Part shown: in pieces, positions 33,317 through 63,888 of the stretch | Layout: each line of letters starts with the position of its first letter | Numbering within the stretch: the first letter of the stretch is position 1 | DNA from: Naegleria gruberi | Lineage: Eukaryota | Assembly: GCA_000004985.1 (NCBI GenBank) | Contig: GG738877.1 | Length of the DNA stretch: 64,000 bases | Strand: one strand, 5' to 3' | Translations under genes and position numbers: made by a program | The notes under the pieces: model-generated | What the model was told of the DNA's origin: nothing | What the model saw: the letters and a program-made list of their open reading frames with translations, nothing else | Database searches by the model: none

Positions 33317-33389
33317 GCTGGCGTAGCTCAGTCGGTAGAGCGTTGGTCTAATAAGCCATTGGTCGCCCGTTCGATCCCGTCCGTCAGCA
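33317..33389 (+). tRNA. tRNA-Ile (anticodon AAU), possibly defective.
   Basis: 73 nt with acceptor GCUGGCG/CGUCAGC (one G-U) and D-arm GCUC-AGUCGGUA-GAGC. Anticodon loop CUAAUAA, T-loop UUCGAUC. The T-stem GCCCG/CCGUC pairs only 3 of 5, and the anticodon stem has a U-U. Confidence 0.55.
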
Positions 33390-46863: not shown

Positions 46864-46934
46864 TGCGTCGACCGGGAATTGAACCCGGGTCACGGCGATG
46901 GCAACGCCGTATTCTACCACTAAACCATCGACGC
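46864..46934 (-). tRNA. tRNA-Gly (anticodon GCC).
   Basis: Reverse complement reads GCGUCGAUGGUUUAGUGGUAGAAUACGGCGUUGCCAUCGCCGUGACCCGGGUUCAAUUCCCGGUCGACGCA. Acceptor, anticodon (CGGCG/CGCCG) and T (CCGGG/CCCGG) stems are all perfect. Confidence 0.85.
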
Positions 46935-51370: not shown

Positions 51371-53686
51371 TTACCAAACATCTCTACATAATCTCTTTTC
51401 ATGTTCCAATTCTTCCATCTTGAGAGTGGCTTGGTCATTGGAAAGTGATTCATGTTTGATGAAAATATTCTTGAAAGTCTCAATCACAGCAGGGCACATT
51501 GAAGATCCATCACCACAAATGTAAATGTGGGCATTTTCTTTAACAATCAAATTGTAAAGTGATTCTGAATTTTCAAGAATTAAATCTTGCACATAGACCT
51601 TCTTCTTTGGGTCTTCTCTAGAAAAGGCAGTATGTAATTCAATGGAATTATTCTTTGACCAATTTTCCAACTCGGTTCTATATAAAAAGTCCTTATTTCT
51701 ATCTCTGCAACCAAAGAAGAGAATATTTCTTCCCTTTGCCTGCAAATTTAATCGTTCTTGGATGAATCCCATGAATGGTGCAATACCTGTTCCTGGGCCA
51801 ATCATAATAATTGGTGTGCTAGTGTCTGATGGCAGCTTGAAATCTCTATTCTTCGAAATAAATATTGGTACTATGGATTGATGTTTGAGGAAGTTAGTGG
51901 CTACACCCTTTCTATTCTTATTAAGGGTATTATAAGTTACAATGGAAACAGTTATTGTTGCCTTTTCATTCTTAGTTTCAACAGCTGATGAACTGATTGA
52001 GTAATATCTTGGTACAAGCACTTTGAATTGATCGACAATGTTTTGAATAGTTATTTTAGACTTGGTGTAAGTATTCTTGTTCGATTTGTGAACGAGAGGG
52101 ATGAGGAAATCTTCCAAAACATCCTCTACCCATCTATCCTCAATGTAGGAATTAAGAGTACTTTCGTCATGCAAAATATTGTCCAATTTGGTTTTCAAAT
52201 CTTCCATGCCAGTGAAATCTTGCTTATCGTGAAGTAATTGCAGCAGTGAGGCACTGACTTGCTTAAGATCGTAGAATCTTGTAATGGCTTCCTTGAGGGT
52301 AATATATTCTGGCATACCACTATCAGCATTCTTGAATGGAGAGCTTTCTGCAGGTGAGAAATAGTTGCTTGGTGCATTAACGAGTGGGGAAGCACTAGAT
52401 CCATGCTCACAAGTAAAGAAATCACTCAAATACTTGAAGAGTGTCTCTGTAACTTGAGAATCATTCTCAGGAAGGACTCCCAGAGCGTCACCACATTCAT
52501 ATTTCAAGCTCTTATCATCCAACAAATCAAAACAAAAGTGAACACATTCTCTAATGTCTTTTGGATTGGATTCATCAATGCATATTCTTCTATTTTCTGT
52601 CACCTTAGCAAAGAATGGATTTGTTCTGTCGTACTGAGTTGTTGTTGACAATGCATTGGCAGAATCACTTTGTAAATAGTCCAAAAGAGGTGAATTAACT
52701 GTAAAATTGGCTCTTCTCTCAGTGATTTGTTGAACAACTCCGTTAAGCCACTTATTAATAGATCTCCAATCGTCTCTATCAATGTCAACTCTATCATGAA
52801 TCCTCTCCGATTGTATAAACTTGCTCTCAAACAAAGAATCAAGTGTTTTCCCTGATCTACAAAAGTGTGTATAACTCTTATCACCTAATGCAAGTACAGA
52901 GTAATAAATATTAGAGGTGGTTTCAATTGATTTGTCTTTCTTTTCTTGCATCGATTCAAAGAATGATAGGGCTGCATTTGGAGGCACTCCTTCTCCATAC
53001 GTTGAACAAACTGAAATGACACAGCTTTCTTGACTCCAATCTATCACATTGTAGTGTTTCAAATCTAATAATCTAGGAACAAAGACAAAGTCATCCTTGT
53101 TATTCAACTTTTCCACAATTTCCTCACAAATTTTCATACCAACTTGTTTTGAAAACCCGAATTCTGTACCATACAAGACCAAAATATTAATCACCTTCTT
53201 TTGCTTATCAAGTGACGAAATAATATCACTGCTGACACTCTTTGGTGTCCAAACTAGTTTTTTAACTGGTGCCTTTTTGATTTGTGTTTGTTCTTCAGCC
53301 TCGGATTCATCCAAACCTTCGAGAAATTCTCTTGTCGACTGAATTTGTTTGTACAATTTATAACCAAGTGTTGATAAGCCAACAATTGCAACAGCTGGAA
53401 GTACAATCTTGTATAAATAGGACCATTTGGATGATTTGTTCTTTGTTGATACCTTGTTAGTGACTGCTCTCGTTAAATTATGAGAAATAATTGATGAAAT
53501 TTGCTGATTATTTGAACTATTAAATTGATTGATGATATTTCTCCCTTGTGATGATGTCTTACCAAACACACTTGTAAGATACATCAAAGTATCCAACAAG
53601 AGTTGGTTATTATTATTGATCATCGATGAACCACTACTACTATGACGAGCATAACTAGGAGGAGGTGGGTAGTTGTTTCTTGTCAT
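51371..53686 (-). CDS. NADPH-dependent diflavin oxidoreductase of the cytochrome-P450-reductase (CPR) family, with an N-terminal membrane anchor.
   Basis: TM helix LPAVAIVGLSTLGY. Flavodoxin-like domain (ILVLYGTEFGFSKQVGMK...YSVLALGDKSY). FAD/NADPH domain (RYYSISSS...IIMIGPGTGIAPFMGFIQER...HIYICGDGSSM...DVW). Confidence 0.7.
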   Translation of the reverse strand: MTRNNYPPPPSYARHSSSGSSMINNNNQLLLDTLMYLTSVFGKTSSQGRNIINQFNSSNNQQISSIISHNLTRAVTNKVSTKNKSSKWSYLYKIVLPAVAIVGLSTLGYKLYKQIQSTREFLEGLDESEAEEQTQIKKAPVKKLVWTPKSVSSDIISSLDKQKKVINILVLYGTEFGFSKQVGMKICEEIVEKLNNKDDFVFVPRLLDLKHYNVIDWSQESCVISVCSTYGEGVPPNAALSFFESMQEKKDKSIETTSNIYYSVLALGDKSYTHFCRSGKTLDSLFESKFIQSERIHDRVDIDRDDWRSINKWLNGVVQQITERRANFTVNSPLLDYLQSDSANALSTTTQYDRTNPFFAKVTENRRICIDESNPKDIRECVHFCFDLLDDKSLKYECGDALGVLPENDSQVTETLFKYLSDFFTCEHGSSASPLVNAPSNYFSPAESSPFKNADSGMPEYITLKEAITRFYDLKQVSASLLQLLHDKQDFTGMEDLKTKLDNILHDESTLNSYIEDRWVEDVLEDFLIPLVHKSNKNTYTKSKITIQNIVDQFKVLVPRYYSISSSAVETKNEKATITVSIVTYNTLNKNRKGVATNFLKHQSIVPIFISKNRDFKLPSDTSTPIIMIGPGTGIAPFMGFIQERLNLQAKGRNILFFGCRDRNKDFLYRTELENWSKNNSIELHTAFSREDPKKKVYVQDLILENSESLYNLIVKENAHIYICGDGSSMCPAVIETFKNIFIKHESLSNDQATLKMEELEHEKRLCRDVW

Positions 53687-54583: not shown

Positions 54584-56149
54584 ATGAGTGAATTATTAAA
54601 GACTAAATTCGATGAACTTATGTTGTTGGTTCAACAAAAGCCTTCTAAACAAGCTCTGATTAAATGGCTCTTATTCAGTGGTGGTATCTTGATTTTGATT
54701 TATGTATACAAGGCTAGTGGAATTGGAAAACTCTTCCGTAAGAAGCCTAGAGCAATCCGTGATCCAAATATCAACTCTACTCACCGTTCTAAACAATCAA
54801 CTCTTAAAGAAAACGAATATGATGTTTGTATTGTTGGTGCTGGTCCATCAGGAGCTACTTGTGCCTATTATCTTGCCAAGTTTGGATACAAAGTTTTGGT
54901 TTTGGAGCAAAAGTATTTCCCACGTGAAAAGACTTGTGGAGATGGTTGTACTGCCAAAACTCTTGCATACCTGAAGGAAATGGGTGTTTTACAAGAATTA
55001 GAAAAGGAAGGAAAGGTCGCCAGTATGGGAAGTGGAGGTATTGTTGGTCCTAATGGTTTGAGTTTCATTGAAAATTCTGGTGCTACTATTGAAAAGATCA
55101 GTGGTGACAATAATTGGACACCAAAAGCAATCAAGAGAATTCACATGGACGAAAAGGTTGCTCGTGCTTGTCAAAAGATGGGTGCCGATCTTAAGGAAGG
55201 TATGGATGTCACCAAGGTTAGTCGTAACTTTGTCGGATTGAAGGGGTGGTCTATTGTTGCTAATCACACTCCAAAGGAAGATGGTGAAACCAAGCAAGTT
55301 AAATTTTTGGCTTCAGTTCTCGTTTGTGCTGATGGTGCTCCATCTAAGCTTGCTACCTCACTCAAGATGGTCAATGAAGAACCACAAGGTATTTCTTCAA
55401 GAGTTTACGTTTCGAACCACAAGATGGAAACTAATTGCATTATCTTCTATCCTAAGCCAGTTTTGCCAGGTTATTGTTCAATGTTTTGTCACTCTGATGG
55501 TGATGTTTCTTTGTGTACTTATATTGTTCCAGGTGGTAAACCAACTAAGGATGATTTGGGTAAACTCCATGAATATTGTACAACTGAAGATCCATTGATT
55601 ACAAAGGCTCTTGGCCCAAATCCTCAATGGCAACAAATGAAGGCTGCTTATTTGAGATTGGGAGGTATTTCTAACTCATACGGTGATAATATTCTCGTTA
55701 TTGGTGATGCTTGCGGTTTGATTAATCCAATGACTGGTGAAGGTATTCACTACGCTATGGATAGGTATGTTTTATTTTTTTTAAAAATTATTTACTGACC
55801 TATTTCAAATAGTGGTAAAATGGCTGCTGAAGTTTTAGGTGATGCCATTAAGGGTGGTGATCTTTCAAAGAATAAGCTCAAACTCTATCAAGATATGTGG
55901 GAATACCAATTTGCTAATGACTTCCATTTCTCTAACGAAGCTGCTGTTCTCGTTGCTAAGTATCCACTCCTCCTTGATGCTGTTGCTTCAGCTGTCAAGA
56001 AAAAGGGTGGTAAATTCTTGGCTGAATTTGCTATGGTTTCTTCAGGTGTGAAGAGTTGGTCTTGGTTCTTGAGACCTGATGTTGCTTTGCCACTTCTTCT
56101 TGAAGTTGTTCTTCTTTCAATCTTTGGTACTCCAAAAAGACAAAAATAA
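54584..56149 (+). CDS. FAD-dependent oxidoreductase of the geranylgeranyl-reductase (ChlP/GGR) family, with an N-terminal hydrophobic anchor. Exons 54584..55764 and 55813..56149, intron 55765..55812.
   Basis: YDVCIVGAGPSGATCAYYLAK is the FAD Rossmann motif. REKTCGDGCT is the GGR Cys motif. GDACGLINPMTGEGIHYAMD/SGKMAAEVLG is the GGR C-terminal FAD motif. The intron GTATGT...TTACTGAC...AAATAG (48 nt) joins the two track ORFs in frame. Confidence 0.65.
55765..55812 (+). other. Spliceosomal intron (48 nt), GTATGT...TTACTGAC...TAG.
   Basis: Canonical yeast-like donor and branch point. It restores the conserved GGR motif across the junction. Confidence 0.65.
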
Positions 56150-56255: not shown

Positions 56256-57185
56256 TCAAATATCTAATTGCAAATCCAACTCTGAAAAGTAAGGTAAATC
56301 ATCTAGCAGCGTTTCATATTCAGAAAGTTTCCTTGTTATAAACATATTAGAATTCAATTCTCTTTTCAATTCACTTGGTATTAGTATGGGAGAGGTCGAA
56401 TATTTGGTATTGGAAAGAAATTGAGAGAATATAGCATTTGAATACTGATGCCACAATTCTTCCAATTGTTTTGGGCTCACACTAAAAGCAACCTTAGATA
56501 GAACACTGTAAAATGGAAAATCATTCTCAAACTCCTCTCTCAATAGTCCTACATCTTGTGGAAAATCTCGATTGAAAAATATTCTATAATCTGTCGTTGA
56601 CACATTATTCTGGTCCTTAATTGAATTAGCTCCACTGAATTTCATCATTAAATTCCAAAATTCAATATAAACATACATGAAAAAATCGAAAATTTCTGAA
56701 GTTACTTCTTCTGAAAATATATTTCTAATTTCCTTGATAATTTCCAAATCCGACGATGATACTCTACTCAAAATATTTGCTATTGAAAATGTGTAAATTA
56801 CACAAACTATCACTCTGGCGTTGGTTGAATCATTCTCATCCAAAATCATACTATTTACAACACTCGATAATTCTAATTTAATTTCATTAATAAATTCTAT
56901 AGCCTCTCCGACTGATGACAATTCTCCTCCTCCATTATTTTCATCTTCATCACAGCTGTTATCCAATATTACTATTTCATGATTTTGTTCATCGTCATCG
57001 GATGATGATTTATGTTCATTCCGATTAGAGTAAAAGTATTTGTAAATTCCATAACATGACACAGCCACTCCTGTAACAATACTCGATCCTATCAGCAAAT
57101 TTCTCTTCTTTCTACGGTCTACTTGTTGAAATTTCTGCCAATACTTGGTTAATGATGAAGTTTGAAAGAAGAGATCATGAAACAT
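56256..57185 (-). CDS. Membrane-anchored protein, possibly peroxin-3 (PEX3)-like.
   Basis: N-terminus WQKFQQVDRRKKRNLLIGSSIVTGVAVSCYGIYKYFY resembles the PEX3 N-terminal basic cluster plus TM segment. The rest is weakly similar at best. Confidence 0.3.
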   Translation of the reverse strand: MFHDLFFQTSSLTKYWQKFQQVDRRKKRNLLIGSSIVTGVAVSCYGIYKYFYSNRNEHKSSSDDDEQNHEIVILDNSCDEDENNGGGELSSVGEAIEFINEIKLELSSVVNSMILDENDSTNARVIVCVIYTFSIANILSRVSSSDLEIIKEIRNIFSEEVTSEIFDFFMYVYIEFWNLMMKFSGANSIKDQNNVSTTDYRIFFNRDFPQDVGLLREEFENDFPFYSVLSKVAFSVSPKQLEELWHQYSNAIFSQFLSNTKYSTSPILIPSELKRELNSNMFITRKLSEYETLLDDLPYFSELDLQLDI

Positions 57186-57243
57186 TTTTTTTTAATAATA
57201 CTTATTTCCAAATTTAATTTGGGATGTTAAAAAAGATAAAAGA

Positions 57244-57317
57244 TGCCTCCCTTGGGAATCGAACCCAAGACCTCTGTCTTACTAGGACAGCGCTACTGCC
57301 AACTGAGCTAGGAAGGC
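57244..57317 (-). tRNA. tRNA-Thr (anticodon AGU).
   Basis: Reverse complement reads GCCUUCCUAGCUCAGUUGGCAGUAGCGCUGUCCUAGUAAGACAGAGGUCUUGGGUUCGAUUCCCAAGGGAGGCA. Good acceptor, anticodon (CUGUC/GACAG) and T (UUGGG/CCCAA) stems. Confidence 0.8.
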
Positions 57318-57416
57318 TTTCTTCAAAGATTTTTCGTACACAATCTAGTGTAAAACGAAAACAGTTCTTTGAACACAGAACCATAGCATGCAAGTTCCCA
57401 CAAATTAGGCTAAAAA

Positions 57417-58358
57417 ATGTCGTTAAAGCTGTGTGATCTGTCTTCCGATTTGCTGAATGAAATTTTGTTGTTGCTGGATAATTTGTTGGGCTACGATAGG
57501 AATATCATAAATTTATGCTTGGTTTGCAAAACTCTCTATTCAGAGATATCTAAAATTAATAATTTTTGGAATGATAAAATTCATAGAGCCTTCATTCCTT
57601 CGTGTTTTGACACAATTTCCATCAAACAATTGAAAGATTTGGAAAATGAAAACAAACTCATGACAGCTTACTTTAATTTGGAATATTTCTGTATTAATGA
57701 TTCCAAACTTCCAGTGGAAGATCTTGTGAAAATTGAAAACTTTGAAAAAAAACAATTATCAATCTCAACAATTGGAAATGATTGTGACAAGTTCTACACG
57801 GGAGCTGGATTTGGGACTTGGTTTCAAGATGGATTTTATAACCACGAGTACATTTATAGAAAAGGACGGTTTGAATATAGTGGATTGGTCAATTTTGCAG
57901 TCAACCATAAAATATGTTGTAACTTTGACAGTGGTTATCTCTACATTGGTGACGAGTTTCCAAACAATATTTTTGATGGTTTTATTTGGTTGACAAGCTT
58001 GTGGGAATTGACAGATTGGACTGAAATTGAAAGGAGGTGCTTGATCATTAATGACTTTTATGAAGGAAAGGTCAAGATTGATGAACCTGAAAAGCCATTC
58101 TTTATTTGCCTGGTTGCGAAACATTTTGATAGAGAAACATTTGAAAAGATTGTTTATTTATTGAATGGATATATTAAGAGGAGAGGAATGACAGTTTCTC
58201 GACTCATGTATTGTAATTTATTAACGATAGAGCCAAAAGCTGTCATGCTCAGTTTACTAAGCAGAATTTCCAAGAGTTTCTTTTCACAACTATTGAACCA
58301 TCTCCACACAAAGTTTGTCCCTCTTGGCAGACAAAAGAAAAAGTGTTTCCTTATGTAA
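57417..58358 (+). CDS. F-box-like protein.
   Basis: N-terminal LSSDLLNEILLLLDNLLGYDRNIINLCLVCKTLYSEI. Real ATG 99 bp upstream of... tRNA-Thr. Confidence 0.4.
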   Translation: MSLKLCDLSSDLLNEILLLLDNLLGYDRNIINLCLVCKTLYSEISKINNFWNDKIHRAFIPSCFDTISIKQLKDLENENKLMTAYFNLEYFCINDSKLPVEDLVKIENFEKKQLSISTIGNDCDKFYTGAGFGTWFQDGFYNHEYIYRKGRFEYSGLVNFAVNHKICCNFDSGYLYIGDEFPNNIFDGFIWLTSLWELTDWTEIERRCLIINDFYEGKVKIDEPEKPFFICLVAKHFDRETFEKIVYLLNGYIKRRGMTVSRLMYCNLLTIEPKAVMLSLLSRISKSFFSQLLNHLHTKFVPLGRQKKKCFLM

Positions 58359-58390: not shown

Positions 58391-59704
58391 TTAAAAGAAT
58401 TTACCAACAATGTTTGAATCTTGTTCCCAATCAGATGACAAATTACCATTCGGATGGAAAATTAGCTTATTAACAACATTAGGATACTTATCAAATGAAC
58501 TAGCTAGTGCATCATAGGAACTAGTCTCAAAAATCACATCAATGGAATCCTTATATCTGTAACTCTCATTCATGTAATAATATCCAATTGTTGTGAACAT
58601 GTAATTGAAATTCTTTCTCACATTTGAGAATGTAGGAGCTACTTGAGAGAGCACTGATGAAATAGTAACTCTATTCTCATCAATCCAACGTTTGGTCTTA
58701 TTTTGATTATCATATCCTTCCTCTCCAATCACTGACAATTCTCTAAAGACAACTCTTTTTACACCCAAATTAATGGCCCATTCCAAATATTGTTCCACTT
58801 GTTCAATATTAGAGATACCTGCCTTAGTGAGAATGCATGAATTCTTCACAACTTTGAATAATGGAGGAAGTACATTCTTGGTGACATTTTCATAAATATC
58901 ATTCAATCGAATTGGTTGTACCTTTTCAAATCTCATAATCTTCTGATTAACTTGTTCATCAAAATGTTGTCTACTCAATTCAATTCTATCAAAATTAAGA
59001 TTTTTCAAACTGTCAACAACCTCTTGAGCATAAAGAGCAAATCCACTTCCATTCGAATACAAAACCTTTTCATCAAATAAATCTGGATATCTTTCCAATA
59101 ATTCACAAAATCTCTGAAACCAATTAGGTTCACTTGTTGCTTCCAATCCAGAAAGTGACAATCCCATATTTAACTTTCCCTTTTCTTTTTGAATGTTATC
59201 AAGAATTTGGAAGGATTTTTCAAGCCCTTTAAAATACTGATCATAATCTTTGATTCTTTTAGTAGGATATGAATTCATCTTCTTTTTAGAACTAGGATTC
59301 TCATCTTGCATTCTTTCTAAATTTTCACTGCAGAAATGACAGTTGGCATTGCAAATCCTTGCAAAAGCATACGGTGTGAAAGTCAACCCATTTCTAACGT
59401 GTAAAATTTTGTTTTTTTCAGATGCATCCGATCCTTGCCAATTAAATATCTCTGATGATAGAGGTGTCATTAATTTAGGTTCATAGAGTGATGATTTCAA
59501 TTGTCTCATGCGAATCAGCTCTTCATCACTTGTTGCTGTCATTACTTGATTTCTGTATGCGTGATGATGTAGAGAAGCAGTGGCGACAGTACATGTGTGA
59601 AAGGATCGGGAGAGGCCAAATTCTCCCACCATGTTCAAGTTTGAACTTTTAAATGATGACGACAAAAAACTCTTTGATGATGTTACTACTGCACAGAGTT
59701 TCAT
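58391..59704 (-). CDS. Radical-SAM superfamily enzyme with an N-terminal mitochondrial-type presequence. Not assignable to a known eukaryotic radical-SAM family. The real ATG is at 59704 (the track start 59713 is GTG).
   Basis: TPYAFARICNANCHFCSE is the CxxxCxxC [4Fe-4S] motif. A GGE-like SAM motif (GLSLSGLEATSEPNWF) lies about 55 residues later. The N-terminus MKLCAVVTSSKSFLSSSFKSSNL...SRSFHTC is S/K-rich and amphipathic-like. Confidence 0.6.
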   Translation of the reverse strand: MKLCAVVTSSKSFLSSSFKSSNLNMVGEFGLSRSFHTCTVATASLHHHAYRNQVMTATSDEELIRMRQLKSSLYEPKLMTPLSSEIFNWQGSDASEKNKILHVRNGLTFTPYAFARICNANCHFCSENLERMQDENPSSKKKMNSYPTKRIKDYDQYFKGLEKSFQILDNIQKEKGKLNMGLSLSGLEATSEPNWFQRFCELLERYPDLFDEKVLYSNGSGFALYAQEVVDSLKNLNFDRIELSRQHFDEQVNQKIMRFEKVQPIRLNDIYENVTKNVLPPLFKVVKNSCILTKAGISNIEQVEQYLEWAINLGVKRVVFRELSVIGEEGYDNQNKTKRWIDENRVTISSVLSQVAPTFSNVRKNFNYMFTTIGYYYMNESYRYKDSIDVIFETSSYDALASSFDKYPNVVNKLIFHPNGNLSSDWEQDSNIVGKFF

Positions 59705-59877
59705 TTTTTTCACTTTGGATTGTTCGAGAGTTCGCGAGAGTTCAACTGTAAATGAAAGTCAAAGGATCCCTTTTCGAAGGTGACAAGGATTAATTTCACA
59801 CATTTCTCAATCCTTCCATTTGTTAATTCCTTACTACTATCAAAAGAGAATTACATGACACTGATTAAGTCTTTTTA

Positions 59878-62800
59878 TTAATAAAAATTGAGAGTGAATC
59901 TGAGCTTTGAGAGTGGAGTAAGGATGGTCAAAATATGATCCTGTTGCACAGGATCACACATAATAGAGTCTGGTCTATAATTCTTTTCCAGGATCATAAT
60001 GTTTTTGAAAATGAACTTCAAAGCATCTGTCAAAATTTGATAATTGAGACAATACACCACAAAACTAAAGAATTTGTCATCAAGTAATTGTTGTTTGGTT
60101 GTTTGATTCTTCTTTTTTACAGTAGAATCTATCGTTAATACTATGCTGTCGAATGAATAACCTGTCTTTACATTCATACCAACTTTGGATAACTCACCCT
60201 TAGCACAGGCAGTAATTAAATGCCATGGATGAGAAATAAGAGTACCAGCAAAATTCTTCCATTTTGACTCAGAAATTAACTTGTCCATTAAGATTGACTT
60301 TAAAATGTACATTATTAAACTTCTGACAACTTTTCCAATGTTATGATTTTTTGACTCGTCTGTAATTGCATTGATTGGAATTTTTTCATTCTTTCCAATT
60401 TCAATAATGTATTGTAAAAGCGTCTTAATGTTACCTTGCAAGGTTGCGATTAGAGTACCTTCCTCTTTTGAACCGCCTGCTTGTTGAGACAATTCAAATT
60501 CAAACTTGAGTTCAAAATTGAAATGTTTCTTCAATAAATTCAAAACAGCAAAAATGGTTGGTGAGTATTCTTCCAAATTCATTATGGATGTTTCTTCGAA
60601 ACACATTGCTGTGTATTTTTGATTGAGAGCGAGCTCATATGTACAAACTGCTAATAACTTGCTTTGTAAAAGGTATTGAATAAAGAGTAAGTCCCTCTCT
60701 TTCAATTTCTTAGGGTCAAGAATTCTCACTTCCTTAAAAGCAAGAAAATCTTGAACAATCTTTTCCTTTTTTACAATATCAAGTTTTGAAAAAATGGTAC
60801 ATAAATCCCTATCAGATTTGAATATTGTCGGTTTGGTTCTGTTAGTAAGTATAGAGTAAATCGAGTGAACTAAAGGTGCCAATAAAGGAGAGGTTCTGTT
60901 AATATTTACAATTCCAGACACTCTTGTTTCCTCAGTCATTGAACTAGTCAACAAATCAATAATGTTTCTTCTCAACTTATCAAGAAGAGGATGTTCCATG
61001 AGAGGTTTTTCTGTATAGAGAAAAGTGTATGGTTTTTCCCATCCCTTTGGAAAAGTGGAAGGATCCACAAAGTTCTCAAACATTTTTTCTTTTCTTTTTG
61101 GTGTAATTGGAGAGTAAAGGTCGTACAGACTCTTGGGAGTGCAAGAAAGAGGCGTTGTTTCGTTGTGAGCACTGTCTGATCTGGAAGGACTTGGATGAGT
61201 GAGAGTATTTGATGTTGTAGTATTTGTTTCAGAAATTGTTGACAAAAGGGCGCAATCTTCTCCAATGAAATCTTCAAGAACTGCATGCTCAACAGTTACC
61301 TCCTGAGCCAATTCTTGTGTGGCTTCTTTCTTTGTGCTACTTGATCTTGAGGAAGGATTAGAATCAAGAAACTCTTGAAGTAGCAAAGCTCCTGCTTCTT
61401 GTTGATGAGGAGAAGAACCTGTTTTCTTTCTATTGGCTCTTTTTGACTTTCTTGAATCAGATCTTTCTCCACTACTGGAATGGCTATCTGTTGTTGATGT
61501 TATTGATACTTTTCTTCCTTCACTGCCTTTTTCCATAGCCTGCTTCTCTAATACAGAAACTAAAACATCAACGCTGCTGGACGGCTCCTCTTCATGGGTA
61601 GAAATGATGTCAGATATCTTTTCCTCTTCAATTATATCTTCCTTTTCTGATTTTGGAACTGATTGTGGGTCAATATTTGATTCTGGCTCACCTTCTGATA
61701 AAAAATCATCAATGTTTACAACAGAATGTTCTGTTGTTTCATCATCACTTTCTTCGCCTTCCTTAATTGATTCTTCTTTCACCATTTTTGCAATGGCTGG
61801 AAGAGGTTTGGCGATTGGTGTTTCTATTTCTTTTATCTCGAGTGGTGACACTTTTGGATCTGGTTTTTTTGGAGTCTTGGAAAGAAATGAGGAAAAATAT
61901 GATCTTATTGATGCAGTTCTGGAGATGGTTGGCTCAGATGCCTTTTTCTCAAAAACTGGATCTGGTTTTGTTTCTACAACTGTAGTTGGTGTTGACTCTG
62001 GTTCTACTGGTGTTATTGGTTCTGAATCGACAGGTGAAGTGGACGCTTGAACTTCAAACACATCCTTTGCAACTTCTATTGGTTTTGGTGATACCACTGG
62101 TAGAGCCTTCACTGGCTTCTTTGGAACAAGAGGCAGAGGTTTTGTTGGAGAATCAACAACAGGCAGACTTGGCTGTTGAGGCAATGCTTTCAAGATAGGC
62201 AGAGGTTTAATTTCGACGATTGGTTTGATTGGTTGAACGGTTTCCTTTTCAATCTGTTTCTCTGGTTCTGTTATCAGCTTAACTTCCACTGTGGTTGTAG
62301 TTTCTTTTTGAGTATTCAAAATTGTAAATGACGTACTTGTTTGAGAATTTGTTTCAACCTTTGGAGTTTCCACAACCACTTGTTTTGGCTCAACTGGAAC
62401 AGGAAGAGCTTTTGGCTCAGAACTCTCAACAACTTTTGGAATCTCTGCTAGTTTATCTTTGGTAACAATTGGAAGAGGTTTCACAGTTGTTTGTTTTGGT
62501 TCTTCAACTTTGATTGGAACTGATGGATCTAGCAATTTTTCCTCTTTTACCACAACTGGTTTTAAAGAAATCAGGGTTGTTTCTTTGCTTTCATGTACAT
62601 TAGGAGTTGAGACAATTGATTGTTTTTCAGGAGATTTCTCAATGGTTTTAGTAGTTTTGGGAGAAGTTTTCTCTTCTAATTTGGGAGAAGATGGTGCTTT
62701 TTCATCAATACGTGATGACTTTAAGGTAATGGTGGTGATTTCCTTTTCCACAATTTCCAAAGAATTTACGTCAATTGGTTGTTCTACAAATACAGGTTGT

Positions 62801-63888
62801 TGTTGAAGAGGAGTTTTATCCTCAATCGAAGGAGAAACAATTTCTTTTTCTACTATAGTGGGTGTTGAATTTGTTTTGACCTCCTCACTACATGGTGTTG
62901 TGGCATTTTCCTCGTTATATGCAGGTTCAAGACTTGGTGATGATGTAGTCTCTTGAATTGATTCGATGGTATTTGAAGTTTGGAACACCTCATCAGTTAC
63001 AATTGTTGGTGATAATGGGGTATGGTCCACAACATGTGATTCCTCAATATCATATTCTTCAAAGGTTTCCAAATAATCCTCTTCTTCAAACTCAACAACA
63101 TGGTCCTCAGGCTCTGAACTTGTTGGCAGTGTTGTGGTTGTTATTTCAACACTATTTGGAGTAGTATCAATGATCTGCTCTTCTTTGGAAGTAATGATGG
63201 GAAGTTCGGAGCTTTTATATTCTTCTACAGTGTCAATAAGGGATGATTCTGGAAGTGCCTCAATATTACTATTATCTGATATTATTGTTTTAGTTACATC
63301 TATTGGTGAAGTAGAGACTACTGGATGTTCTTCATACTCTTCATATTCCTCGTAAAATTCATCATCGTCAATCTCTTCTGGAGTTAACTCTTCGGTTGTA
63401 AGTTGTTTTTCATGGACTTCGACAAAAGTTGTTGAAGGCTCAGCAAGTTCTTCTTGTTCTTCATCTACCACTTTCTCATTATTTTCCTCAATTATAGGAT
63501 GAATAGGAGTGTAAGAGAAAAAGAAGGAGCTATGATCAGCCTTAAACCTCTTAAAATGAATCTGTGGAGTAGAAGTGGTAATTTTCGACTCAACTTGAGA
63601 GCGAAGTTTTGAGTACCTTTTGGAAATTCTATCCAATGCTTGTATCGGTGATTTGTTCTTTTGCATATCATTACTAGTCTCTTTTAAAATTGCTTGATAA
63701 TTCCTTTCCAAGCTATTTAACTCTTCCTCATTCGAAAATATATCCTGGTTCCTATTTCTATAGAGAAATACACCAAGCTTGGATGGATTTTGTGATTGAA
63801 GGGATTTTAATTCATTCTTGCCGTCTTGTTGATGATTTTCATTGAGTTTTTCAAATCGCGCTCTCAATGACTTCCACCCTTCCGTCAT
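59878..63888 (-). CDS. Large (1336 aa) protein with a central P/T/E/K/V-rich low-complexity region and a conserved globular C-terminal about 450 aa (RUN-like?).
   Basis: Real ATG. The central region has PxxP/KPxP-type repeats (KPLPIVTKDK, KALPVVSPKPIEV). The C-terminal domain is non-repetitive. No confident family call. Confidence 0.45.
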   Translation of the reverse strand: MTEGWKSLRARFEKLNENHQQDGKNELKSLQSQNPSKLGVFLYRNRNQDIFSNEEELNSLERNYQAILKETSNDMQKNKSPIQALDRISKRYSKLRSQVESKITTSTPQIHFKRFKADHSSFFFSYTPIHPIIEENNEKVVDEEQEELAEPSTTFVEVHEKQLTTEELTPEEIDDDEFYEEYEEYEEHPVVSTSPIDVTKTIISDNSNIEALPESSLIDTVEEYKSSELPIITSKEEQIIDTTPNSVEITTTTLPTSSEPEDHVVEFEEEDYLETFEEYDIEESHVVDHTPLSPTIVTDEVFQTSNTIESIQETTSSPSLEPAYNEENATTPCSEEVKTNSTPTIVEKEIVSPSIEDKTPLQQQPVFVEQPIDVNSLEIVEKEITTITLKSSRIDEKAPSSPKLEEKTSPKTTKTIEKSPEKQSIVSTPNVHESKETTLISLKPVVVKEEKLLDPSVPIKVEEPKQTTVKPLPIVTKDKLAEIPKVVESSEPKALPVPVEPKQVVVETPKVETNSQTSTSFTILNTQKETTTTVEVKLITEPEKQIEKETVQPIKPIVEIKPLPILKALPQQPSLPVVDSPTKPLPLVPKKPVKALPVVSPKPIEVAKDVFEVQASTSPVDSEPITPVEPESTPTTVVETKPDPVFEKKASEPTISRTASIRSYFSSFLSKTPKKPDPKVSPLEIKEIETPIAKPLPAIAKMVKEESIKEGEESDDETTEHSVVNIDDFLSEGEPESNIDPQSVPKSEKEDIIEEEKISDIISTHEEEPSSSVDVLVSVLEKQAMEKGSEGRKVSITSTTDSHSSSGERSDSRKSKRANRKKTGSSPHQQEAGALLLQEFLDSNPSSRSSSTKKEATQELAQEVTVEHAVLEDFIGEDCALLSTISETNTTTSNTLTHPSPSRSDSAHNETTPLSCTPKSLYDLYSPITPKRKEKMFENFVDPSTFPKGWEKPYTFLYTEKPLMEHPLLDKLRRNIIDLLTSSMTEETRVSGIVNINRTSPLLAPLVHSIYSILTNRTKPTIFKSDRDLCTIFSKLDIVKKEKIVQDFLAFKEVRILDPKKLKERDLLFIQYLLQSKLLAVCTYELALNQKYTAMCFEETSIMNLEEYSPTIFAVLNLLKKHFNFELKFEFELSQQAGGSKEEGTLIATLQGNIKTLLQYIIEIGKNEKIPINAITDESKNHNIGKVVRSLIMYILKSILMDKLISESKWKNFAGTLISHPWHLITACAKGELSKVGMNVKTGYSFDSIVLTIDSTVKKKNQTTKQQLLDDKFFSFVVYCLNYQILTDALKFIFKNIMILEKNYRPDSIMCDPVQQDHILTILTPLSKLRFTLNFY

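What the first reader, a model, noticed from the sequence alone, without database searches (positions are those of the whole stretch)
58391..59713. Orphan radical-SAM enzyme with a mitochondrial-like presequence in a eukaryotic gene neighbourhood
The protein has an unambiguous CxxxCxxC cluster motif (CNANCHFC) and a GGE-like SAM-binding motif. The motif context does not resemble the eukaryotic radical-SAM families I know: LIAS CTRGCRFC, MOCS1 CNLRCQYC, viperin CNYKCGFC, TYW1, Elp3, CDK5RAP1. The N-terminal about 50 residues look like a cleavable organellar targeting peptide. This could be a lineage-specific or horizontally acquired enzyme, for example RNA or cofactor modification, or an antiviral viperin-like chemistry. 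It sits 6 kb from a CPR-type reductase and a GGR-type flavoprotein, which could supply reducing equivalents, but that linkage is speculative.
Basis: partly seen in the sequence, partly recalled or inferred. Interest (0 to 1): 0.6.

Follow-up and report, generated by a model that had tools for sequence, protein, structure and literature searches.

The report
Bacterial-origin radical-SAM gene in Naegleria
This is a real gene of the amoeba Naegleria gruberi for a radical-SAM enzyme acquired long ago from bacteria; its family has no known function, but in bacteria it is almost always paired with a small nucleotidyltransferase and, in one large branch, sits inside NAD-salvage operons.

Summary
Window 58391-59713(-) is an intact ORF with CNANCHFC, an SGLE (GGE-like) motif, a Pfam Radical_SAM hit and a confident radical-SAM fold. 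The window is Naegleria gruberi; the gene is the deposited 'predicted protein' XP_002675602.

It is not an orphan. Orthologues exist in N. fowleri and another Naegleria-like genome, and hundreds of about 45%-identical homologues occur in Bacteroidota, Myxococcota and others. The Naegleria clade (100% bootstrap) nests in the Bacteroidota-type branch, and GC/GC3 match the neighbours, so this is an old, ameliorated horizontal transfer.

It fails membership of viperin, MoaA and PqqE/SPASM: there is one cluster plus one further invariant Cys.

In bacteria the gene is coupled to a LnuA/ANT(2'')/MenT-like nucleotidyltransferase (54/67 loci, plus natural fusions). Myxococcota add a tandem TauD dioxygenase. 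Proteobacteria add a methyltransferase, with NrtR/NAMPT/NadM/ADP-ribose genes alongside (7/7 loci). My best guess is radical chemistry on a nucleotide-like substrate.

Naegleria kept only the rSAM gene and added an N-terminal extension of about 50 residues. The extension is coding, which makes the deposited 383-aa model too short. Mitochondrial targeting is plausible but untested. The proposed link to the CPR/flavoprotein neighbours is not conserved.

The parts
58391..59704 (-). Proposed full coding sequence: 437 codons from the first ATG (59702-59704) to the stop codon (58391-58393).
   Evidence: ORF; sequence read; coordinates computed. The frame is open for 68 codons upstream of the conserved RNQ motif.
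59564..59704 (-). Naegleria-specific N-terminal extension (residues 4 to about 50). It is basic, Ser/Thr-rich and poor in acidic residues, and is a candidate organellar targeting peptide. It contains R36-S-F38 (59600-59608), a motif also present in N. fowleri.
   Evidence: Absent from the bacterial homologues. pLDDT is below 50. In the first 40 residues there are 4 K/R, 1 D/E and 13 S/T. The extension is 15-29% identical between Naegleria species, against 61-77% for the mature part. The frame is kept open in all three species. Targeting itself was not tested.
59540..59542 (-). ATG of codon 58, the start of the deposited 383-aa model XP_002675602. It is probably not the true start.
   Evidence: P0001 covers 87% of the ORF. 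The family-wide, nearly invariant N55 and the 'RN' consensus lie upstream of this ATG. N. fowleri has Ile at this position.
58394..59554 (-). Region homologous to the bacterial rSAM family (residues 54-440): an N-terminal beta/alpha cap, the radical-SAM partial TIM barrel and a C-terminal beta-rich domain ending in GYYY..E and FHPNGNL.
   Evidence: Alignment A1 has 44 invariant columns. Structure. Bacterial hits cover 88% of the query.
59330..59353 (-). CNANCHFC: the CxxxCxPhiC motif that binds the [4Fe-4S] cluster (C121, C125, C128; F127).
   Evidence: Invariant in 67/67 aligned sequences. Coordinates.
59141..59152 (-). SGLE (S188-E191) within GLSLSGLEAT, the counterpart of the 'GGE' SAM-binding motif.
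   Evidence: S186, S188, G189, L190 and E191 are invariant. The phage relative has a canonical GGEP at this position.
58835..58837 (-). C293, the only invariant cysteine outside the cluster motif. It is a candidate catalytic residue (hydrogen-atom donor or thiyl radical).
   Evidence: Invariant columns. The protein's cysteines are at 7, 41, 121, 125, 128, 203 and 293, so no SPASM/twitch or second MoaA-type cluster is possible. The catalytic role is inferred.
58931..59365 (-). Span of the Pfam Radical_SAM (PF04055) match, residues 117-261.

Best explanation
The ORF is a functional nuclear gene of Naegleria gruberi. It encodes a radical-SAM enzyme with a single [4Fe-4S] cluster, from an uncharacterised family that is otherwise bacterial.

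Origin. The gene entered the Naegleria lineage by horizontal transfer from a Bacteroidota-type donor before N. gruberi and N. fowleri diverged. Its composition has since been fully ameliorated. It also gained an N-terminal extension of about 50 residues, which is translated and most likely acts as an organellar (mitochondrial) targeting peptide.

Mechanism. Shown: the CxxxCxxC cluster site, the SAM motif and the radical-SAM barrel are intact and invariant. The enzyme should therefore reductively cleave SAM to a 5'-deoxyadenosyl radical that abstracts a hydrogen atom from its substrate. Inferred: the substrate is a nucleotide or nucleotide-derived molecule, possibly related to NAD or ADP-ribose, or a nucleotide within RNA. 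The invariant C293 would then help resolve the substrate radical.

Basis for the substrate inference. In bacteria the enzyme works with a small Pol-beta-type nucleotidyltransferase to which it is translationally coupled or fused. Lineage-specific additions are an amino-methyltransferase of the (D/N)PPY type, a tandem TauD dioxygenase, and placement within NrtR/NAMPT/NadM/ADP-ribose gene neighbourhoods. Naegleria appears to have kept only the radical-SAM step.
For: Identity and host:
- 100% match to N. gruberi XP_002675602; orthologues are 76% and 59% identical.
- The flanking genes are eukaryotic in both species.
- Gene GC is 0.333 and GC3 0.279, within the neighbours' range.

Horizontal transfer:
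- After Naegleria, the next-best hits are Bacteroidota proteins at 44-48% identity.
- In the NJ tree Naegleria is monophyletic in 200/200 bootstraps and lies inside the Bacteroidota-type clade (67.5%). The Myxococcota clade and the outgroup clade each have 100% support.

Enzyme class:
- Pfam hit; 44 invariant columns including C121/C125/C128 and SGLE.
- Model pLDDT 85.8.

Partner:
- A gene of about 160 aa lies immediately downstream on the same strand in 54/67 loci, often overlapping the stop codon.
- It keeps the G..DxD..D/E signature.
- Natural rSAM-NTase fusions exist: P0274 is confirmed (32% identity to the Naegleria protein, E 4e-42); P0267 is inferred from its length and a C-terminal NTase match.

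Nucleotide theme:
- The NTase is fused to an N6_N4_Mtase/UPF0020-type methyltransferase.
- 7/7 proteobacterial-type loci carry NrtR, NAMPT, NadM, NADAR, Tpt1, ARH or NT5C next to the pair.
- L007, in the main clade, has NADAR and Tpt1 5-8 kb upstream.
- A MazG gene is adjacent in Blastocatellia.
- The best, though weak, profile hits are to viperin.

Extension:
- N55 and 'RN' are conserved upstream of M58.
- The frame stays open 68/66/47 codons upstream of RNQ in the three species (chance 0.02, 0.016, 0.005).
- The extension is 15-29% identical between species, against 61-77% for the mature part.
Against: - No substrate has been identified; every functional inference is contextual.
- The NAD/ADP-ribose neighbourhood is strong only in the proteobacterial branch, which is about 33-35% identical to the Naegleria protein. 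In the Bacteroidota/Myxococcota branch that includes the likely donor, only 1 of about 60 loci shows it.
- Two divergent members sit in cobalamin-type clusters instead.
- 13/67 bacterial loci lack the partner next door.
- No partner was found in the window, in the N. fowleri locus, or in the word-indexed protein search. The Naegleria enzyme may therefore do something different from the bacterial pair.
- The presequence features are only moderately convincing: weak amphipathicity, and the RSF motif is absent from the third species.
- The tree is NJ only, and the exact sister group is unresolved (31-38% support).
Confidence: 0.55

Rival explanations
1. It modifies a polynucleotide (tRNA, rRNA or DNA) rather than a free nucleotide. 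In Naegleria it would be an imported modification enzyme for mitochondrial RNA.
Against: No RNA-binding module (THUMP, PUA, TRAM, S4) is present in the rSAM or its partner. The sporadic taxonomic distribution is unlike that of housekeeping RNA modifiers. The partner matches the small-molecule nucleotidyltransferases LnuA and ANT(2'') just as well.
Confidence: 0.2
2. It is a viperin-like antiviral enzyme that converts an NTP into a 3'-deoxy-3',4'-didehydro chain terminator.
Against: The scores are far below the 180-bit cut-off. MoaA and GDGT-MAS match the fold better. The N-terminal cap and the C-terminal GYYYY / FHxNGNL domain have no viperin counterpart. The conserved partner is a nucleotidyltransferase, not a kinase. 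The survey of eukaryotic viperins does not mention Naegleria or Telonema.
Confidence: 0.08
3. It acts in corrinoid (cobamide) metabolism, for example on the nucleotide loop or during salvage.
For: The rSAM-NTase fusion in L092 lies between a CobB/CobQ-type amidotransferase and CbiC (266 bits). The L091 operon ends with the corrinoid adenosyltransferase CobA/BtuR (211 bits), overlapping the preceding gene. The N. fowleri orthologue is 7 kb from MMADHC.
Against: Only two loci, both from divergent members, show this. None of these cobalamin genes recurs in the other loci fetched up to that point (L001-L092). The MMADHC proximity is not shared by N. gruberi and is probably coincidental.
Confidence: 0.07
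4. It is a peptide/protein maturase (RiPP- or SPASM-like) or a lipid-tail cross-linking enzyme like GDGT-MAS.
Against: There are no auxiliary-cluster cysteines: only C293 is invariant beyond the SAM cluster. No conserved precursor peptide, protease, transporter or lipid-synthesis neighbour was found.
Confidence: 0.05
5. The gene is bacterial contamination of the assembly, or a decaying pseudogene with no function in Naegleria.
For: It has bacterial affinity and no introns.
Against: It is embedded between eukaryotic genes on a 394.7-kb scaffold. Its GC and GC3 match the neighbours. Intact orthologues occur in two further Naegleria-type genomes, with all 44 family-invariant residues kept and 61-77% identity.
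Confidence: 0.02

Closest known systems
MoaA / MOCS1A (GTP 3',8-cyclase)
   Different: 14% identity. TIGR02666 scores 16.3 bits against a cut-off of 284. There is no second C-terminal [4Fe-4S] cluster. The N-terminal cap and C-terminal domain differ. The partner is a nucleotidyltransferase, not MoaC.
Viperin (RSAD2) and prokaryotic viperins (pVips)
   Different: Scores are 5- to 10-fold below the family cut-off. The flanking domains are different. No kinase is associated, and no defence-island context was seen.
GDGT-MAS / Tes (archaeal tetraether lipid synthase, PDB 7tom)
   Different: 14% identity. Tes is larger (498 aa) and, from my own knowledge, carries additional clusters and a lipid-binding pocket. 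The family here has no extra Cys ligands and no lipid-gene context.
LnuA / ANT(2'')-Ia / MenT / TM1012 minimal nucleotidyltransferases (for the bacterial partner)
   Different: 12-16% identity, and only sub-threshold Pfam hits (NTP_transf_5, DUF2204, MdcG). It is a small dedicated family (264 representatives among 1.84 billion) that is tied to this rSAM enzyme. It was not found in Naegleria.
NrtR-regulated NAD-salvage operons (prs-nadV-nadM; Rodionov et al. 2008, PMC2330246)
   Same: The proteobacterial branch of the family sits in exactly these gene sets. In Massilia it forms an 'nrtR<>X-Y' divergon, like the unassigned nrtX-nrtY pairs in that paper.
   Different: Identity with nrtX/nrtY could not be verified: the taxa listed in the paper are absent from the top hits and no supplement is held. 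The association does not extend to most loci of the branch that contains the Naegleria donor.

Membership tests
Radical SAM superfamily (PF04055) | A CxxxCxxC motif supplying three Cys ligands to the SAM-binding [4Fe-4S] cluster | tested here: met
   CNANCHFC at residues 121-128, invariant in 67/67 sequences.
Radical SAM superfamily (PF04055) | Profile score at or above the Pfam gathering threshold | tested here: met
   32.4 bits against 29.5. The margin is narrow, and several bacterial homologues fall below the threshold.
Radical SAM superfamily (PF04055) | Partial (beta/alpha)6 TIM-barrel fold with a GGE-type SAM motif | tested here: met
Radical SAM superfamily (PF04055) | Reductive cleavage of SAM to 5'-deoxyadenosine | not testable with these tools
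   Requires anaerobic biochemistry.
Viperin / pVip | Score at or above the NCBIfam NF038283 cut-off (180 bits), or membership of the viperin clade | tested here: not met
   16.8 bits for the Naegleria protein and 33.2 bits for P0073. PADLOC pVip gives 22-31 bits over the core only.
MoaA / MOCS1A | TIGR02666 at or above 284 bits, and a second C-terminal [4Fe-4S] cluster with three Cys ligands | tested here: not met
   16.3 bits. Only one invariant Cys (C293) lies outside the SAM-cluster motif.
SPASM / twitch maturases (PqqE, anSME, SkfB and others) | A Cys-rich C-terminal auxiliary-cluster domain | tested here: not met
   PqqE TIGR02109 scores 21 bits against 381. The C-terminal 150 residues of the Naegleria protein contain no cysteine at all.
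Uncharacterised NTase-coupled rSAM family (Bacteroidota/Myxococcota/Pseudomonadota; defined here) | Full-length homology, including R70, R107, TFTP, CNAxCxFCSE, LSLSGLE, NQxIMRF, C293, GYYYxxE and FHxNGNL | tested here: met
   44-48% identity over 88% of the query. All 44 invariant columns are present.
Uncharacterised NTase-coupled rSAM family (Bacteroidota/Myxococcota/Pseudomonadota; defined here) | An adjacent or fused Pol-beta-type nucleotidyltransferase partner | tested here: not met
   The partner is present in 54/67 bacterial loci. It is absent from the 64-kb window, from 8 kb either side of the gene in N. fowleri, and from the short Naegleria-like contigs. Whole Naegleria genomes could not be searched.
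Mitochondrial matrix-targeted proteins (cleavable presequence) | An N-terminal extension relative to prokaryotic homologues, net positive and poor in acidic residues | tested here: met
   An extension of about 50 residues occurs in all three Naegleria proteins. N. gruberi has 4 K/R against 1 D/E in the first 40 residues (net +3); net charge is +3 to +5 over the first 40 residues in the three species.
Mitochondrial matrix-targeted proteins (cleavable presequence) | An amphipathic helix and an MPP cleavage motif (R-2/R-3) | tested here: inconclusive
   The hydrophobic moment is unremarkable for N. gruberi (1.13, against a window background of 0.8-2.3). An 'RSF' motif is shared by N. gruberi and N. 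fowleri but not by the third species. TargetP and MitoFates were not available.
Mitochondrial matrix-targeted proteins (cleavable presequence) | Experimental localisation to mitochondria | not testable with these tools
   The N. gruberi mitochondrial proteome table (PMC8134430) is stored truncated, and the protein was not found in the stored part.

The most novel reading that the evidence does not exclude
The rSAM-nucleotidyltransferase pair, with its methyltransferase or TauD add-ons, makes or repairs a so far unknown modified nucleotide derived from NAD, NMN or ADP-ribose, under NrtR control. Naegleria captured the radical step and sends it to its mitochondrion. That would give a eukaryotic organelle a bacterial nucleotide-modifying chemistry with no counterpart in other eukaryotes.
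Probability: 0.15. Interest if true: 0.75.

Novelty: new variant of a known kind. Interest (0 to 1): 0.42.

Why it matters
For Naegleria, this is a clean, datable bacterium-to-eukaryote transfer that gained a targeting-type extension. It also corrects a deposited gene model that is truncated at its 5' end.

More broadly, tracing the homologues uncovered a radical-SAM family of several hundred members with no assigned function. The family has a dedicated nucleotidyltransferase partner, supported by gene fusions as well as adjacency. In Proteobacteria the pair sits consistently next to NAD-salvage and ADP-ribose genes (NrtR, NAMPT, NadM, NADAR, Tpt1, ARH).

NAD and ADP-ribose metabolism is currently central to phage-host conflict and to signalling, so an unassigned radical enzyme inside those regulons is a concrete, testable lead for new nucleotide chemistry. 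Because N. fowleri carries the orthologue and humans have no homologue, a defined function could also matter for that pathogen.

Tried and rejected
1. Specific family assignment. NCBIfam, Pfam, PADLOC, and both single-sequence and profile searches of PDB sequences gave only sub-threshold or generic hits.
2. The NTase partner in Naegleria. Nothing was found by six-frame HMM scans of the window or of the N. fowleri and Naegleria-like loci, nor in the word-indexed protein search. The most AT-rich hits of the exhaustive search proved to be the bacterial neighbours of rSAM hits, judged by matching contig lengths. Absence from whole Naegleria genomes is not proven.
3. Mitochondrial proteome evidence. 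The supplement of PMC8134430 is stored truncated and the protein is not in the stored part, so this is uninformative.
4. Transcript evidence for the 5' extension. The 1.6-kb Logan contigs look like AT-rich genomic DNA ending in a telomere-like repeat, not poly(A) transcripts.
5. Identity with the 'nrtX-nrtY' pairs of Rodionov 2008. The architecture matches, but the listed taxa are not among the top hits and no supplement is held, so this is unverified.
6. Cobalamin link. It is seen in two divergent loci only and does not recur.
7. Phage or defence association. One gut phage carries a full-length relative, but its small neighbour is not the NTase. The BFVD fold search found no close viral match.
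8. Functional link to the CPR-type reductase and the FAD monooxygenase in the window. It is not conserved in N. fowleri.
9. Literature. No paper mentions the locus tags or accessions, and none links a radical-SAM enzyme to NrtR or nadV operons.
Full report

WHOSE GENE IT IS. The best database hit (100% identity, 383 aa) is the N. gruberi 'predicted protein' XP_002675602 / NAEGRDRAFT_69217, on a 394.7-kb scaffold. The neighbouring ORFs are eukaryotic in type: PH-domain, RUN-domain and Saf4/Yju2 proteins, a diflavin CPR-like reductase and an FAD_binding_3 monooxygenase. The gene's GC (0.333) and GC3 (0.279) lie within the range of the 29 other long ORFs in the window. Orthologues exist in N. fowleri (FDP41_003218, 447 aa, 59% identity) and in an unnamed, very AT-rich Naegleria-like organism (P0002, 428 aa, 76%). 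The N. fowleri gene lies among other eukaryotic genes (RCC1, Ras, ArsA/Get3) and is not syntenic with the window. Contamination and recent transfer are therefore excluded.

NOT AN ORPHAN: A BACTERIAL FAMILY AND A HORIZONTAL TRANSFER. After the Naegleria proteins, the hits are proteins of 360-375 aa at 41-48% identity over 88% of the query, with E-values down to 1e-91. Where a source is named, they come from Bacteroidota (Hymenobacter, Rhodocytophaga, Flavilitoribacter, Saprospiraceae, Cytophagaceae). Others come from Myxococcota, Blastocatellia, Calditrichia, Leptospiraceae and Nocardia.

A bootstrapped NJ tree of 71 sequences over 355 columns gives these supports:
- Naegleria monophyly: 200/200.
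- A Myxococcota clade: 100%.
- A divergent outgroup clade (Pseudomonadales, Nocardia, Nannocystis, Bdellovibrionales): 100%.
- Naegleria inside the Bacteroidota-dominated clade: 67.5%.
The exact sister group is unresolved.

A Telonema subtile transcriptome protein (P0052) is also a homologue. It branches separately near Hymenobacter (Naegleria+Telonema 17%) and may be an independent acquisition or a prey contaminant. The most economical reading is a single transfer from a Bacteroidota-type donor into the Naegleria stem lineage.

WHICH KNOWN FAMILIES IT IS NOT. NCBIfam gives only sub-threshold hits. For the Naegleria protein these are PqqE at 21 bits (cut-off 381) and viperin_w_prok at 16.8 bits (cut-off 180). 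For the bacterial member P0073 they are viperin 33.2, HxsC 20.3 and MoaA 16.3 (cut-off 284). PADLOC gives pVip at 22-31 bits. Single-sequence and profile searches of PDB sequences find nothing significant. Across the family only four cysteines are invariant: the three cluster ligands and C293. The last 150 residues of the Naegleria protein contain no cysteine. That rules out a MoaA-type second cluster and SPASM/twitch domains. The family is an unassigned branch of the MoaA/viperin/SPASM-like part of the superfamily. It has its own N-terminal cap (invariant R70, W74, R107, TFTP) and its own C-terminal beta-rich domain (GYYYxxE, ETSSY, FHxNGNL, W429).

WHAT THE BACTERIAL CONTEXT SAYS.

(ii) Lineage-specific additions. 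In 24 loci, almost all Myxococcota, a tandem TauD-type Fe/2OG dioxygenase lies directly upstream on the same strand. In Pseudomonadota and relatives the NTase is fused to an amino-methyltransferase of the N6_N4_Mtase/UPF0020 type. One relative has the NTase fused to an FAD_binding_4 domain.

(iii) A nucleotide/NAD theme. In the Pseudomonadales locus L067 the order is Prs-like, NAMPT, NrtR, NADAR, NT5C, rSAM, MTase-NTase, all co-directional with short gaps. These are followed by DUF4291, Tpt1/KptA, a second NrtR and an ADP-ribosylglycohydrolase. The same gene types flank the pair in L068, L069 and L070. They also do so in three further complete genomes chosen only by genus. In Massilia, NrtR is divergent from rSAM-MTase/NTase. 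In Lysobacter the order is NadM-like, NAMPT, rSAM, MTase/NTase. In Microbulbifer it is ARH, NrtR, rSAM, MTase, NTase, NAMPT. That makes 7 of 7 loci of this branch, which itself has at least 368 members. In the main branch the signal is weak: L007 has NADAR and Tpt1 5-8 kb upstream, and the Blastocatellia locus has a divergent MazG. Two divergent members instead sit next to corrinoid genes (CobA/BtuR; CobQ-like and CbiC), and these do not recur elsewhere. One gut phage (Dulem virus 40) has a full-length relative in its early/DNA-metabolism region.

MECHANISM (best estimate). Shown: an intact, invariant SAM-cluster site and barrel, so the enzyme should generate a 5'-deoxyadenosyl radical. Inferred: the substrate is a nucleotide or nucleotide-derived molecule, free or within RNA. 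The inference rests on five points:
- an obligatory nucleotidyltransferase partner;
- a fused methyltransferase of the nucleobase-amine type;
- the NAD-salvage/ADP-ribose neighbourhoods;
- the structural neighbours MoaA and viperin both act on NTPs;
- TauD-family enzymes that act on nucleotides are known (LipL/Cpr19, from my own knowledge).
The single invariant extra cysteine, C293, is a candidate hydrogen-atom donor or thiyl site, as in several radical-SAM epimerases and spore photoproduct lyase (own knowledge; not tested here). I put about 0.9 on 'horizontally acquired member of this bacterial rSAM family', about 0.4 on a nucleotide-type substrate, and about 0.5 on mitochondrial localisation.

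THE N-TERMINAL EXTENSION. Bacterial proteins begin about 10 residues before the 'SDEEL..R..KW.LY' helix. All three Naegleria proteins carry 44-51 extra residues. The deposited N. gruberi model starts at M58, but three observations place the true start upstream. The family-wide, nearly invariant N55 and the 'RN' consensus lie upstream of M58. N. fowleri has Ile at the M58 position. And the frame stays open 68, 66 and 47 codons upstream of the RNQ motif in the three species, with chance probabilities of about 0.02, 0.016 and 0.005 given local composition. The true start is therefore upstream, most simply the first ATG at 59702-59704.

The extension evolves fast (15-29% identity, against 61-77% for the mature part). 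It is net positive, Ser/Thr-rich and nearly free of acidic residues at its start, and it is modelled as disordered. An 'R-S-F' motif, compatible with an MPP R-3 site, is shared by N. gruberi and N. fowleri but not by the third species. Amphipathicity is unremarkable, no predictor could be run, and the available mitochondrial proteome table is truncated. Naegleria also offers a cautionary precedent: predicted mitochondrial hydrogenase maturases turned out to be non-mitochondrial (PMC4007538, listed).

NAEGLERIA HAS, AS FAR AS I CAN SEE, ONLY THE rSAM GENE. The partner profile finds nothing in the 64-kb window, within 8 kb either side of the N. fowleri gene, or on the short Naegleria-like contigs. 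No eukaryotic protein appeared in the partner searches. Thirteen bacterial loci likewise lack an adjacent partner, so a stand-alone role is plausible. Whole Naegleria genomes were not searchable here.

The CPR-like diflavin reductase (51371-53686) and the FAD monooxygenase (54584-55798) exist. The N. fowleri orthologue has neither within 8 kb, so there is no conserved linkage.

VERDICT. This is a genuine but moderately interesting finding. The Naegleria gene itself is an already deposited, unannotated protein and one more bacterial acquisition in a genome known for them. What is new is the characterisation of its family: an unassigned radical-SAM branch with a dedicated nucleotidyltransferase partner and, in Proteobacteria, a consistent NAD-salvage/ADP-ribose context. 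No paper I could find describes it. Interest 0.42; novelty: new variant of a known kind.

Noticed in passing
window 59540-59704: The deposited N. gruberi gene model (XP_002675602, 383 aa) starts at the ATG of codon 58. Conservation of N55 and 'RN' across the family, and the open frame upstream, indicate that the model is truncated at its 5' end by about 54 codons.
   Followed up: yes
window 57244-57317 (-): A tRNA-Thr(AGT) gene lies about 1.1 kb downstream of the rSAM gene's stop codon, beyond the 313-aa ORF 57417-58358(+) and next to the 309-aa ORF 56256-57185(-). The 70-aa ORF 57224-57436(+) listed mechanically overlaps it and is almost certainly spurious. Two more tRNAs are at 33317-33389 (Ile-AAT) and 46864-46934 (Gly-GCC).
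   Followed up: no
L088 1-1621 (Logan ERR14847230; also L089, L090): The 76%-identical orthologue sits on contigs of about 1.6 kb with extremely AT-rich flanks (local GC about 0.18). L088 ends in (GGGGATT)x3, a telomere-like repeat, which suggests an unnamed Naegleria-related species in which the gene may be subtelomeric.
   Followed up: partly
P0052 (EukProt EP00656 Telonema subtile): The Telonema homologue begins with MIRRPPRSTLSSSSAASDVYKRQ. I recognise this, from my own knowledge, as a translated sequencing-adapter artefact. Its real N-terminus is therefore unknown, and it branches apart from Naegleria near Hymenobacter, so bacterial contamination of the transcriptome cannot be excluded.
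   Followed up: partly
L091 2292-5477 and L092 1-4928: Two divergent family members lie in corrinoid-type operons. L091 has rSAM, MTase-NTase, CobA/BtuR and a GNAT gene. L092 has a CobQ-like amidotransferase, an unknown 216-aa gene, the rSAM-NTase fusion, CbiC and an asparaginase. Separately, the N. fowleri orthologue is 7 kb from an MMADHC (cobalamin trafficking) gene (L086 329-934). The latter is probably coincidence.
   Followed up: partly
L096 5081-7234 (Dulem virus 40, PP511379.1 17179-19332): A lemur-gut phage encodes a full-length relative of the family (27-28% identity). It is preceded by a second 'Fe-S oxidoreductase' gene and followed by a 115-aa 'NAT SF' gene that is not the NTase partner. 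All three lie in the early/DNA-metabolism region of the phage.
   Followed up: partly
L093 6218-9263; PMC2330246 Table 1: The Massilia arrangement, with nrtR divergent from the rSAM and MTase-NTase genes, has the same architecture as the unassigned 'nrtR<#>nrtX-nrtY' divergons that Rodionov et al. 2008 reported in Proteus, Hahella, Frankia, Kineococcus and Streptomyces. Whether nrtX/nrtY are this pair could not be checked.
   Followed up: partly
L083 1-1316: The Myxococcales contig that carries the TauD-rSAM-NTase operon also has EgtB-like (DinB_2 + FGE-sulfatase) and EgtD-like (Methyltransf_33) ergothioneine-type genes about 8 kb upstream on the opposite strand, plus a second FGE-sulfatase gene downstream. 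No link was established.
   Followed up: no
window 59878-63888 (-): The upstream neighbour is a 1336-aa ORF whose first roughly 1,000 residues are low-complexity (Pro/Glu/Ser/Thr/Val-rich), ending in a C-terminal RUN domain. Its stop codon lies only about 175 bp from the rSAM gene's first ATG, so the rSAM promoter and 5' UTR must be very short.
   Followed up: no
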